DNA of 64,000 nt, taken from Escherichia coli (GTDB lineage Bacteria > Pseudomonadota > Gammaproteobacteria > Enterobacterales > Enterobacteriaceae). Positions 12,250 to 15,200 of this stretch are shown here, piece by piece. Position 1 is the first letter of the stretch; each line of letters starts with the position of its first letter. The stretch lies in NCBI RefSeq assembly GCF_051903065.1, contig NZ_CP178438.1; one strand, given 5' to 3'. Made by a program: the position numbers.

Positions 12250-15200
12250 TTAACCTGCCAATATTGAGGATACAAACTATTTTCTTCTACCTCTAAAGGA
12301 CGATGCACGCTATGCCTCCCTGATGATGTATATCAAAGTAAAACCGCCATTTTCCCTTATTCTGTAGCGAAATAGCACGATCATGACGCTATATACATGA
12401 TTACATAGCGAAAGTGTGGATGGTAAAAATCTCATTTACACGCTAGTATCGGCTTAACCACTAAACACTCTAGCCTCTGCACCTGGGTCAACTGATATGG
12501 TGCTTTGGCCGTGACAATGCTCGTAAAGATTGCCACCAGGGCGAAGGAAGAAATGACTTCGCCTCCCGTATCTGGAAAGGTGTACATGGCTTCACAACTG
12601 ACTGATGCATTTGCGCGTAAGTTTTACTACTTGCGCCTGTCGATTACCGATGTGTGTAACTTTCGTTGCACCTACTGCCTGCCGGATGGCTACAAACCGA
12701 GCGGCGTCACCAATAAAGGCTTTCTGACCGTCGATGAAATTCGCCGGGTTACGCGCGCCTTCGTCAGTCTGGGCACCGAAAAAGTGCGCCTGACAGGCGG
12801 TGAGCCGTCTTTACGCCGCGACTTTACCGATATCATCGCCGCTGTGCGAGAAAACGACGCTATTCGCCAGATAGCGGTCACCACCAATGGTTACCGTCTG
12901 GAACGCGATGTGGCGAACTGGCGCGATGCGGGACTTACTGGCATTAACGTCAGCGTCGACAGTCTGGACGCCCGCCAGTTTCATGCCATTACCGGCCAGG
13001 ATAAATTCAATCAGGTGATGGCAGGGATCGATGCTGCATTTGAGGCCGGTTTTGAGAAGGTCAAAGTCAATACCGTGCTGATGCGTGATGTGAATCATCA
13101 CCAGCTCGACACCTTTCTGAACTGGATCCAGCATCGCCCTATCCAGCTGCGTTTCATCGAACTGATGGAAACGGGCGAGGGCAGCGAGCTCTTCCGTAAG
13201 CATCACATCTCTGGTCAGGTTCTGCGTGACGAGCTACTGCGTCGCGGCTGGATCCACCAATTACGTCAACGCAGCGACGGTCCCGCGCAAGTCTTTTGTC
13301 ATCCGGATTACGCCGGAGAGATTGGCCTTATCATGCCGTATGAAAAAGACTTCTGCGCCACTTGCAACCGCCTGCGCGTTTCCTCCATTGGTAAACTCCA
13401 TCTCTGCCTGTTTGGTGAAGGCGGTGTTAACCTGCGCGATCTGCTGGAAGACGATACCCAGCAACAGGCGCTGGAAGCGCGTATTTCAGCGGCACTGCGG
13501 GAGAAGAAACAGACCCATTTCCTGCATCAAAACAACACCGGTATTACGCAAAACTTATCGTACATTGGCGGCTAAAACGTCAAAAGGAGAGATCAGATGA
13601 GTCAGGTAAGCACTGAATTTATCCCGACCCGTATTGCTATTCTTACGGTTTCTAATCGTCGCGGTGAAGAAGACGATACCTCCGGTCACTATTTGCGCGA
13701 TTCGGCGCAAGAAGCTGGCCATCACGTTGTCGATAAAGCCATTGTGAAAGAAAACCGCTACGCTATTCGCGCTCAGGTATCTGCGTGGATCGCCAGCGAC
13801 GATGTACAAGTGGTGTTGATTACGGGTGGTACTGGCCTGACGGAAGGTGATCAGGCTCCCGAAGCATTGCTGCCGTTGTTCGACCGTGAAGTTGAAGGTT
13901 TTGGTGAAGTGTTCCGTATGTTGTCGTTTGAAGAGATTGGCACTTCCACGTTGCAATCTCGTGCGGTAGCGGGCGTCGCTAACAAAACGCTGATTTTCGC
14001 AATGCCGGGTTCGACCAAAGCGTGCCGTACCGCATGGGAAAATATCATCGCGCCGCAGCTGGATGCCCGTACGCGTCCGTGTAATTTCCATCCACATTTG
14101 AAGAAATAAGTATGTCGCAACTGACCCATATCAACGCCGCTGGCGAAGCGCACATGGTGGATGTCTCCGCCAAAGCGGAAACCGTGCGTGAAGCGCGGGC
14201 GGAAGCCTTTGTCACCATGCGCAGCGAGACGCTGGCGATGATTATTGATGGTCGCCACCACAAAGGCGACGTATTTGCCACTGCGCGTATTGCCGGTATT
14301 CAGGCGGCAAAACGCACCTGGGATCTGATCCCGCTGTGTCATCCGCTGATGCTCAGCAAAGTTGAAGTCAATTTACAGGCCGAGCCGGAGCACAATCGGT
14401 TGCGTATAGAAACCTTATGCCGCCTGACCGGGAAAACCGGTGTCGAAATGGAAGCGTTAACCGCGGCCTCCGTGGCGGCGCTGACCATTTATGACATGTG
14501 CAAAGCGGTGCAAAAAGATATGGTGATTGGTCCGGTACGTTTGCTGGCGAAGAGCGGCGGCAAGTCGGGTGACTTTAAGGTGGAAGCGGATGATTAAAGT
14601 TCTTTTTTTCGCCCAGGTGCGCGAGTTGGTAGGAACAGATGCAACCGAAGTGGCTGCGGATTTCCCAACCGTTGAAGCGTTACGCCAGCACCTGGCTGCG
14701 CAGAGCGATCGCTGGGCGCTGGCGCTGGAAGATGGCAAATTACTGGCTGCCGTCAACCAGACGCTGGTGAGTTTTGACCATCCGCTGACTGACGGCGACG
14801 AAGTAGCTTTCTTCCCGCCGGTAACCGGAGGTTAAGATGGCAGAAACCAAAATTGTTGTTGGTCCGCAGCCGTTCAGCGTAGGAGAAGAGTACCCGTGGC
14901 TGGCGGAGCGTGACGAAGACGGTGCGGTAGTCACCTTTACCGGTAAGGTGCGCAACCATAACCTGGGCGACAGCGTCAAAGCATTAACCCTCGAACACTA
15001 TCCGGGGATGACTGAAAAAGCACTGGCAGAAATTGTCGATGAAGCGCGTAACCGCTGGCCGCTTGGGCGCGTCACGGTGATTCACCGCATCGGGGAATTA
15101 TGGCCGGGCGATGAAATCGTTTTTGTCGGTGTCACCAGTGCGCATCGCAGCAGTGCGTTTGAAGCCGGGCAGTTTATTATGGATTATCTCAAAACCCGCG

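What the first reader, a model, noticed from the sequence alone, without database searches (positions are those of the whole stretch)
12300..12585. Stacked control region upstream of moaA: FNR-like site, ModE-like palindrome and long leader
The moaA upstream region has a near-consensus FNR half-site pair, a 24-bp inverted repeat cgctatatacatgattacatagcg, and a leader of about 150 nt at the position of the Moco riboswitch. This is consistent with the layered anaerobic, molybdate and cofactor control known for the operon. The leader structure itself was not verified here.
Basis: partly seen in the sequence, partly recalled or inferred. Interest (0 to 1): 0.25.

Follow-up and report, generated by a model that had tools for sequence, protein, structure and literature searches.

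The report
Known E. coli moaA control region
This is the textbook control region of the E. coli molybdenum-cofactor operon moaABCDE: an FNR site, a ModE operator, two promoters and the Moco riboswitch. All of these are really present and conserved, but they are already described and already annotated.

Summary

- **Riboswitch.** Rfam's Moco riboswitch model (RF01055) matches window 12454-12598 over its full length at 104.5 bits (threshold 36, E 6e-25). The match ends 13 nt inside moaA, whose ATG is at 12586. RefSeq annotates a "molybdenum cofactor riboswitch" at exactly these bases.
- **ModE operator.** The palindrome at 12387-12410 fits the published E. coli ModE core consensus in 15 of 16 positions. 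It is the only such match in the 64 kb. A site with two or fewer mismatches lies upstream of moaA in 51 of 79 species, against 0 of 549 control pieces.
- **FNR site.** ATGATgtatATCAA at 12323-12336 matches the FNR consensus in 9 of 10 positions. One such match means little alone. However, it sits 69 bp (68 in one) upstream of the ModE site in all 24 other Enterobacteriaceae sequences aligned.

Published start sites place S1 at 12456 and S2 near 12369. That puts the FNR site at about -40 of S2 and the ModE site at -57.5 of S1. The leader is therefore 130 nt from S1 and 217 nt from S2, not about 150.

The stretch is identical or nearly so in 5,424 of 5,426 complete E. coli genomes. The verdict is that this is already known and of low interest. 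The only unexplained item is a conserved block at 12288-12304, upstream of the FNR site.

The parts
12288..12304 (.). Conserved upstream block CTACCTCTAAAGGACGA (core GACGA at 12299-12303). Its role is unknown. It lies about 30-33 bp upstream of the FNR-site centre.
   Evidence: The core is at least 90% conserved across 25 Enterobacteriaceae rows, and the spacer to the FNR site varies in sequence while keeping nearly constant length. No function was found in the papers read.
12323..12336 (.). FNR binding site ATGATgtatATCAA (9/10 to TTGAT-N4-ATCAA). Its centre, 12329.5, is about -39.5 relative to S2, a class II-type position overlapping the -35 region of S2.
   Evidence: FNR dependence of S2 is from Regulski 2008 (PMC2408646), citing Anderson 2000.
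12358..12363 (+). The -10 hexamer TATTCT of the distal, FNR-dependent promoter S2. The S2 start is at about 12369 (S2 = -87 relative to S1).
   Evidence: The hexamer is conserved as TAYYCT in the alignment. The S2 = -87 numbering is from the PMC2408646 Fig. 2 legend. Assigning this hexamer to S2 is my inference.
12387..12410 (.). ModE operator CGCTATATA-catgat-TACATAGCG. Its centre, 12398.5, is -57.5 relative to S1 and +29.5 relative to S2.
   Evidence: It matches the published core consensus in 15/16 positions (consensus from PMC545781). It is the only hit in the window. A site with 2 mismatches or fewer is present in 51/79 moaA loci against 0/549 controls. The half-sites are conserved while the spacer varies.
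12421..12449 (+). Proximal, ModE-activated promoter S1: weak -35 TGGTAA (12421-12426), 17-bp spacer, -10 TAGTAT (12444-12449).
   Evidence: Read from the sequence. The conserved forms ATGGCGAAA and CGCTACTATCG appear in the alignment. The generic sigma-70 scan found nothing here, as expected for a weak, activator-dependent promoter. The hexamer assignment is my inference.
12456..12456 (+). Transcription start S1 (+1), the first base of AACCACTAAAC...
   Evidence: The PMC2408646 methods amplify '1 to 145 relative to S1' with a primer whose genomic part starts AACCACTAAACACTCTAGCCTC. This equals window 12456-12477. The reverse primer ends at 12600, which gives 145 nt.
12454..12598 (+). Moco riboswitch aptamer (RF01055). 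Stems: P1 12464-12470/12579-12584 with outer pairs 12456-12459/12589-12592; P2 12473-12483/12499-12509; P3 12511-12518/12529-12536; P4 12539-12549/12554-12564 with a GAAA loop at 12550-12553; P5 12565-12566/12574-12575.
   Evidence: 104.5 bits, full model length 1-135. RefSeq feature at the same coordinates. P2-P5 were recovered independently, with 20/27 pairs showing compensatory changes.
12577..12588 (+). Shine-Dalgarno AAGGUG (12577-12582) and the moaA AUG (12586-12588). The Shine-Dalgarno overlaps the 3' strand of P1.
   Evidence: cmscan structure line and sequence. GGUGU is invariant in 73 of 74 relatives. The sequestration model is from PMC2408646.
12546..12548 (+). GGA motif in the upper part of P4, a candidate CsrA contact.
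   Evidence: Sequence only. PMC7652899 states that CsrA binds two sites within the aptamer, and the primary paper was not available. The exact assignment is therefore inferred.
12574..12576 (+). GGA motif at P5/J5-1, just upstream of the Shine-Dalgarno, a candidate CsrA contact.
   Evidence: Sequence only, as for the previous row.
12586..15289 (+). The controlled operon moaABCDE (moaA ends with its stop codon at 13575).
   Evidence: ORFs and RefSeq annotation of the matching record.

Best explanation
This is the yvcK-moaA intergenic control region of Escherichia coli, and it works as already described for strain K-12.

Two sigma-70 promoters fire towards moaA. The distal one (S2, start about 12369) has no usable -35 element and depends on FNR bound at 12323-12336, about 40 bp upstream of the start. 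It therefore switches on without oxygen. The proximal one (S1, start 12456) has a weak -35 element and is activated by molybdate-loaded ModE bound to the operator at 12387-12410. It therefore switches on when molybdate is available.

Both transcripts carry the Moco riboswitch (12454-12598). When finished cofactor accumulates, the RNA folds so that stem P1 closes over the Shine-Dalgarno sequence and start codon, and moaA is not translated. CsrA binding in the aptamer counteracts this, and Rho can terminate untranslated transcripts early.

What was shown here: the presence, uniqueness and conservation of the two DNA sites; their positions relative to the published start sites; full-length membership of the RNA motif; and covariation in stems P2-P5. 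What is taken from the literature: dependence on FNR, ModE, Moco, CsrA and Rho. What is inferred: the exact promoter hexamers and which GGA motifs CsrA contacts.
For: - RF01055 scores 104.5 bits against a threshold of 36, E 5.9e-25, over model positions 1-135.
- RefSeq annotates a 'molybdenum cofactor riboswitch' at the same bases, followed by moaABCDE.
- The region is present in 5,424 of 5,426 complete E. coli genomes, at 99% identity or more in 5,199.
- 79 of 80 moaA loci from Enterobacterales, Vibrionaceae, Aeromonas and Pasteurellaceae carry the motif just upstream of, and in most overlapping, the moaA start.
- RNAalifold on 59 of them recovers P2-P5, with compensatory changes in 20 of 27 pairs.
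- The ModE core consensus matches once in 64 kb with 1 mismatch, against 0.09 expected at 3 mismatches or fewer.
- A ModE site with 2 mismatches or fewer is present in 51 of 79 loci and in 0 of 549 control pieces.
- The FNR-like site is conserved 69 bp (68 in one) upstream of the ModE centre in all 24 other Enterobacteriaceae sequences aligned, and about 72-75 bp upstream in Serratia, Hafnia and Edwardsiella.
- The literature covers this exact sequence: S1/S2, FNR at S2, ModE at S1, a 131-nt leader needed for Moco repression, and reporter assays (PMC2408646). The K-12 primer of that paper matches window 12456-12477.
- CsrA activates moaA translation by binding in the aptamer (PMC7652899).
- Rho-dependent termination at moaA is documented (PMC7815308).
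- No intrinsic terminator is found in the leader, which fits translational control.
Against: - Nothing contradicts the explanation. The points below are limits on the evidence.
- The primary papers that footprint ModE and map S1/S2 (Anderson 2000), define CsrA sites (Patterson-Fortin 2013) and derive the ModE consensus (Studholme & Pau 2003) were not held. Site positions relative to start sites therefore rest on a figure legend and a primer sequence.
- With S2 at 12369 the FNR centre is at -39.5, not the canonical -41.5.
- The left FNR half-site is ATGAT rather than TTGAT in all the species aligned.
- The single-sequence fold is not unusually stable (z = -1.0) and does not reproduce the consensus fold.
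- P1 is short, and its pairing energy barely exceeds shuffled controls.
- Direct binding of Moco to the RNA has never been shown (PMC2408646, PMC10845959).
Confidence: 0.95

Rival explanations
1. The FNR-like site and the palindrome are chance matches in an AT-rich intergenic region and bind nothing. Only the riboswitch is functional.
For: A single 1-mismatch FNR match is unremarkable: 7 in the window against 2.7 expected, and 1.8% of 310-nt control pieces reach it. The generic promoter scan finds no sigma-70 promoter in the region.
Against: The ModE match is unique in 64 kb, with 0.09 expected. It recurs in 51/79 species against 0/549 controls. Both sites are islands of conservation with variable flanks and a near-constant 69-bp spacing across genera. 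The literature reports FNR- and ModE-dependent promoters here.
Confidence: 0.02
2. The palindrome at 12387-12410 acts mainly as an RNA hairpin in the long S2 transcript (it lies at +18 to +41 of S2) rather than as a DNA operator.
For: It is transcribed from S2. The arms can pair 8/9. A few species show changes at arm position 3 that keep pairing: CGT...ACG in L015 and L020.
Against: The half-sites are conserved as sequence (TATATA/TATGTA), matching the published ModE consensus, rather than covarying. The one position that varies is the N of the consensus. L010 breaks the pair. AT-rich arms would make a weak hairpin.
Confidence: 0.04
3. The site at 12323-12336 is used by another CRP/FNR-family protein such as CRP, rather than FNR.
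For: The TGA-N6-TCA core is shared by CRP and FNR sites. The left half, ATGAT, is not the FNR consensus TTGAT.
Against: The right half, ATCAA, is the FNR type: T:A rather than G:C next to the TGA core (established knowledge of FNR/CRP discrimination). S2 is reported to be FNR-dependent, and FNR activation of moaABCDE has been reconfirmed (PMC10845959).
Confidence: 0.04
4. The leader controls moaA mainly by premature transcription termination rather than by blocking translation initiation.
For: A Rho-dependent 3' end and more than 2-fold higher fusion expression in a rho mutant are reported for moaA (PMC7815308).
Against: No intrinsic terminator is present in the leader. The Shine-Dalgarno sequence lies in the 3' strand of P1. 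Translational fusions respond to Moco. Rho termination is the usual secondary consequence of untranslated mRNA.
Confidence: 0.1

Closest known systems
E. coli K-12 moaABCDE promoter/leader (moaA S1 and S2 promoters, FNR and ModE sites, Moco riboswitch; Anderson et al. 2000; Regulski et al. 2008)
   Same: It is the same locus. The K-12 primer sequence from Regulski 2008 matches window 12456-12477 exactly. K-12-sized genomes are 99.6% identical over 12190-12650. The flanking genes are the same: uvrB, yvcK/ybhK, moaABCDE, ybhL.
   Different: There are only a few point differences from other E. coli lineages, for example U rather than C at 12495 in an unpaired position of P2. Neither protein site nor any conserved junction of the RNA is affected.
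Rfam RF01055, Moco RNA motif (Moco/Tuco riboswitch)
   Same: Full-length match, five-stem layout, GAAA tetraloop on P4, P3 present (the form linked to Moco rather than the tungsten cofactor), Shine-Dalgarno sequence in P1.
   Different: None of note. In Enterobacteriaceae the 5' strand of P1 reads ACACUC rather than the AACUCC of other gamma-proteobacteria. It still pairs with the invariant GGUGU.
ModE operators of modABC, dmsA, napF and others (consensus ATCGNTATATA-N6-TATATANCGAT)
   Same: Core match of 15/16 with the same 6-bp spacer.
   Different: Here ModE activates from about -57.5, rather than repressing by promoter occlusion as at modA (general knowledge, and PMC2408646). The outermost AT/AT positions of the 28-bp consensus are not matched: 1 of 4 fits.
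Class II FNR-dependent promoters (FNR centred near -41.5)
   Same: A 9/10 site overlaps the -35 region of a promoter that has a recognisable -10 element only.
   Different: The centre computes to -39.5/-40.5 from the published S2 numbering. The left half-site is ATGAT.

Membership tests
Moco RNA motif (RF01055) | Covariance-model score above the curated gathering threshold over the full model | tested here: met
   104.5 bits against 36, model positions 1-135, E 5.9e-25.
Moco RNA motif (RF01055) | Stems P2-P5 supported by compensatory changes in relatives | tested here: met
   RNAalifold on 59 sequences gives 27 pairs, 20 with double changes. P1 was not recovered there, because the MAFFT alignment puts its 5' strand in different registers.
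Moco RNA motif (RF01055) | P1 encloses the ribosome-binding site (translational expression platform) | tested here: inconclusive
   The cmscan structure pairs 12464-12470 with 12579-12584, which overlaps the Shine-Dalgarno AAGGUG. Pairing is possible in all 74 relatives tested, but the helix is short: mean -3.45 against -2.68 kcal/mol for shuffles.
Moco RNA motif (RF01055) | P3 stem present (Moco-type rather than tungsten-cofactor type) | tested here: met
   P3 at 12511-12518/12529-12536. The P3 criterion is from PMC2408646.
Moco RNA motif (RF01055) | Sits upstream of a molybdenum-cofactor gene | tested here: met
   It overlaps the moaA start. The motif lies just upstream of moaA, in most loci overlapping its start, in 79/80 related loci.
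Moco RNA motif (RF01055) | Responds to, or binds, Moco | not testable with these tools
   Genetic evidence exists for this E. coli sequence (PMC2408646). Direct binding has never been shown (PMC10845959).
ModE operator | Match to CGNTATATA-N6-TATATANCG | tested here: met
   1 mismatch, the only hit in 64 kb, 0.09 expected at 3 mismatches or fewer. The consensus is from PMC545781.
ModE operator | Conserved next to the regulated promoter in relatives | tested here: met
   51/79 loci have a site with 2 mismatches or fewer, against 0/549 control pieces. The half-sites are conserved and the spacer is variable.
ModE operator | Molybdate-dependent ModE binding and activation of S1 | not testable with these tools
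   Reported by Anderson 2000 as cited in PMC2408646. The primary paper was not held.
Class II FNR-activated promoter | Match to TTGAT-N4-ATCAA | tested here: met
   9/10 at 12323-12336. Conserved as ATGAY-N4-ATCAA.
Class II FNR-activated promoter | Site centred near -41.5 of the start | tested here: inconclusive
   The centre 12329.5 against S2 at 12369 gives -39.5. The site is 28.5 bp from the first base of the -10 hexamer, where 29.5 is expected. The start-site position comes only from a figure legend.
Class II FNR-activated promoter | FNR-dependent anaerobic induction | not testable with these tools
   Literature only (PMC2408646; PMC10845959).
CsrA-bound leader | Two GGA motifs available for a CsrA dimer | tested here: inconclusive
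   GGA occurs at 12546-12548 and 12574-12576. The review says there are two sites within the aptamer. The exact sites could not be checked, because the primary paper was not held.

The most novel reading that the evidence does not exclude
The conserved block at 12288-12304 (core GACGA) may be a fourth, undescribed input to the distal moa promoter. It sits about 30-33 bp upstream of the FNR centre in the aligned Enterobacteriaceae, with no more than 1-3 bp variation. It stays linked to the moa side even where a roughly 50-bp insertion separates it from yvcK. It could be a site for another regulator, or a docking site for the RNA polymerase alpha subunit upstream of FNR. Separately, the near-constant 69-bp FNR-ModE spacing puts bound ModE at +29.5 of S2. 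ModE could therefore also act as a roadblock that shifts transcription from S2 to S1.
Probability: 0.25. Interest if true: 0.25.

Novelty: already known. Interest (0 to 1): 0.06.

Why it matters
It matters little as a discovery. The region is a well-studied model of layered control: oxygen through FNR, metal through ModE, finished cofactor through a riboswitch, then CsrA and Rho. It is already annotated in RefSeq.

The modest added value here is comparative. The whole FNR-S2-ModE-S1-riboswitch stack, with a near-constant 69-bp FNR-ModE spacing, is conserved across Enterobacteriaceae. The ModE site extends through most Enterobacterales but not to Vibrionaceae or Aeromonas, which keep only the riboswitch. 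One further conserved upstream block has no assigned role.

Tried and rejected
- **Generic promoter scan.** The sigma-70 scan of 12150-12700 found no promoter. This is uninformative, because both promoters are weak and activator-dependent.
- **Single-sequence fold.** The fold of the 145-nt leader has z = -1.0 and an MFE unlike the consensus. It is not evidence either way.
- **P1 in the consensus fold.** RNAalifold did not recover P1, because MAFFT aligns the ACACUC and AACUCC forms out of register.
- **Direct P1 duplex test.** This is only marginally better than shuffles.
- **Papers not held.** I tried to read Anderson 2000, Patterson-Fortin 2013 and Studholme & Pau 2003. PhyloScan (PMC1794230) contained nothing on moaA.
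- **NarL/NarP idea.** I considered a NarL/NarP heptamer for the upstream block, since TACCTCT fits TACYYMT (a consensus recalled from memory). I rejected it as the explanation because the heptamer is not the conserved part; the GACGA core is.
- **yvcK promoter idea.** I considered the block as the -35 element of the divergent yvcK promoter. This is unlikely in E. coli, where a roughly 50-bp insertion separates them while the block keeps its distance to the FNR site.
- **Minus-strand ORF.** The 51-aa ORF at 12432-12587 overlaps the riboswitch and was treated as a mechanical ORF.

Full report
**What the window is**

The ORFs around the finding are uvrB (9069-11090, +), yvcK/ybhK (11281-12189, -) and moaA, moaB, moaC, moaD and moaE (12586-15289, +), followed by ybhL.

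The stretch 12190-12650 is 100% identical to O157:H7/O55:H7-type E. coli chromosomes. It is found in 5,424 of 5,426 complete E. coli genomes, at 99% identity or more in 5,199. RefSeq annotates a 'molybdenum cofactor riboswitch' feature followed by moaA at this place. Over the whole window the identity to that O157 record is only about 98.8%, with three replaced segments. The window therefore comes from another E. coli lineage.

**The leader**

A scan of the whole window against Rfam gives RF01055 (Moco RNA motif) at 12454-12598 on the + strand. The score is 104.5 bits against a gathering score of 36, E 5.9e-25, over model positions 1-135 with no truncation.

The structure line of that alignment places the stems as follows:
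- P1 at 12464-12470/12579-12584, with outer pairs at 12456-12459/12589-12592
- P2 at 12473-12483/12499-12509
- P3 at 12511-12518/12529-12536
- P4 at 12539-12549/12554-12564, capped by GAAA (12550-12553)
- P5 at 12565-12566/12574-12575

The 3' strand of P1 (GGUGUA) overlaps the Shine-Dalgarno sequence AAGGUG (12577-12582). The AUG (12586) lies between the inner and outer parts of P1. This is the translational expression platform described for this RNA (PMC2408646). No intrinsic terminator is predicted in the leader.

To check the structure independently, I fetched 80 moaA loci from one-genome-per-species contigs. Of these, 79 carry the motif just upstream of moaA, in most overlapping its start; only Rosenbergiella lacks it. 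A MAFFT alignment of 59 of them, folded with RNAalifold, recovers P2, P3, P4 and P5. Of 27 predicted pairs, 20 show at least one double compensatory change.

P1 was not recovered, because its 5' strand exists in two registers. It reads ACACUC in Enterobacteriaceae and AACUCC elsewhere, both opposite an invariant GGUGU. A direct duplex test of P1 is only slightly better than shuffles. The single-sequence fold is uninformative (z = -1.0).

**The palindrome**

CGCTATATACATGATTACATAGCG lies at 12387-12410. It is an imperfect inverted repeat: 9-nt arms at 8/9 complementarity with a 6-nt spacer.

The published E. coli ModE consensus is ATCGNTATATA-N6-TATATANCGAT (PMC545781). The core CGNTATATA-N6-TATATANCG matches here with one mismatch. 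This is the only match in 64 kb even when three mismatches are allowed, against 0.09 expected.

In the 300 nt upstream of the riboswitch, 51 of 79 related loci have a site with two mismatches or fewer. These 51 are nearly all the Enterobacterales and none of the Vibrionaceae or Aeromonas. None of 549 control pieces of 310 nt from coding sequence reaches two mismatches. In the alignment of 25 Enterobacteriaceae sequences the two half-sites are conserved while the central 6 bp vary freely. That is the pattern of a dimer-binding DNA site rather than an RNA hairpin.

**The FNR-like site**

ATGATGTATATCAA at 12323-12336 has one mismatch to TTGAT-N4-ATCAA. That alone is weak evidence. The window holds seven such matches against 2.7 expected, and 1.8% of control pieces reach one mismatch.

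The site is, however, an island of conservation (ATGAY-N4-ATCAA) in the 24 other Enterobacteriaceae sequences aligned. Its centre lies 69 bp (68 in one) upstream of the ModE centre. In Serratia, Hafnia and Edwardsiella a site with 1-2 mismatches lies 72-75 bp upstream.

**Promoters and geometry**

Regulski et al. 2008 follow Anderson et al. 2000 in defining S1 as +1 and S2 as -87. They place FNR at S2 and ModE at S1, and describe a 131-nt leader needed for cofactor repression (PMC2408646). Their reporter was built from '1 to 145 relative to S1', using a primer whose genomic part begins AACCACTAAACACTCTAGCCTC. That sequence is window 12456-12477, and the reverse primer ends at 12600, giving 145 nt.

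From this:
- S1 is at 12456 and S2 at about 12369.
- The conserved hexamer TAGTAT (12444-12449) is then the -10 of S1, with a weak -35, TGGTAA (12421-12426).
- TATTCT (12358-12363) is the -10 of S2.
- The ModE centre is at -57.5 of S1 and +29.5 of S2.
- The FNR centre is at about -39.5 to -40.5 of S2, a class II-type position.

The hexamer assignments are my inference. They coincide with conserved islands. The generic promoter scan finds nothing here, which fits two activator-dependent promoters.

**Further known layers**

CsrA activates moaA translation by binding two sites inside the aptamer (PMC7652899). The GGA motifs at 12546-12548 and 12574-12576 are the candidates, but I could not check them against the primary paper. 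A Rho-dependent 3' end and higher expression in a rho mutant are reported for moaA (PMC7815308). FNR activation of moaABCDE and the riboswitch feedback are restated in recent work. That work also notes that the exact ligand has never been identified biochemically (PMC10845959).

**Verdict**

Three small corrections apply. The leader is 130 nt from S1 and 217 nt from S2. The palindrome is imperfect. The RNA motif runs 13 nt past the finding's right edge into moaA.

Everything here is already known and annotated, so interest is low. The only item without an explanation is a conserved block at 12288-12304 (core GACGA). It keeps a nearly constant distance to the FNR site across genera and stays with the moa side even where a roughly 50-bp insertion separates it from yvcK.

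Noticed in passing
window 12288-12304: Conserved block CTACCTCTAAAGGACGA (core GACGA at least 90% conserved in 25 Enterobacteriaceae rows), about 30-33 bp upstream of the FNR centre. The spacer between them varies in sequence but is nearly constant in length. No role was found in the papers read.
   Followed up: partly
window 12240-12287: A roughly 50-bp segment of the yvcK-moaA intergenic region is present only in Escherichia and Citrobacter. It is absent from the other 20 Enterobacteriaceae sequences aligned.
   Followed up: no
window 12218-12232: A perfect 7-bp palindrome GCGCTAC-A-GTAGCGC lies about 30 nt upstream of the yvcK start codon (yvcK is on the minus strand). 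The TAC.GTA core is conserved in relatives. It could be the yvcK -10 region (TACTGT on the minus strand) or a site in its leader.
   Followed up: no
window 16175-17437: Downstream of ybhL, the usual ybhM gene is replaced by a DUF3969-family gene plus a hypothetical gene. Only 12 of 5,426 complete E. coli genomes carry this version at 80% coverage or more.
   Followed up: partly
window 1-3455 and 28605-29374: These segments do not align, or align poorly, with the O157:H7 record. That record has prophage-remnant effector genes (nleH1-1, nleD) and espX2 at these places. The window's content here was not examined.
   Followed up: no
window 36354-36424 (-): Rfam naRNA4 (CssrE) match at 78.4 bits, a REP-type repeat downstream of hcxB.
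   Followed up: no
L002 63-104 and L047 81-122 (-), corresponding to the uvrB-yvcK spacer: Rfam ES036 (CssrF) sRNA matches just above threshold in E. albertii and another E. coli. The window's own scan reported none at the equivalent place.
   Followed up: no
Riboswitch P1 5' strand, window 12464-12470, and loci L002-L081: Enterobacteriaceae read ACACUC where other gamma-proteobacteria read AACUCC. Both lie opposite an invariant GGUGU that doubles as the Shine-Dalgarno sequence. This is a lineage-specific, one-sided remodelling of P1.
   Followed up: partly
Loci L057-L081 (Vibrionaceae, Aeromonas, Pasteurellaceae, Moritella, Arsenophonus): These keep the Moco riboswitch before moaA but have no ModE-consensus site within 300 nt upstream; the best matches have 4-8 mismatches. 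The protein-based layers therefore appear to be specific to Enterobacterales.
   Followed up: partly
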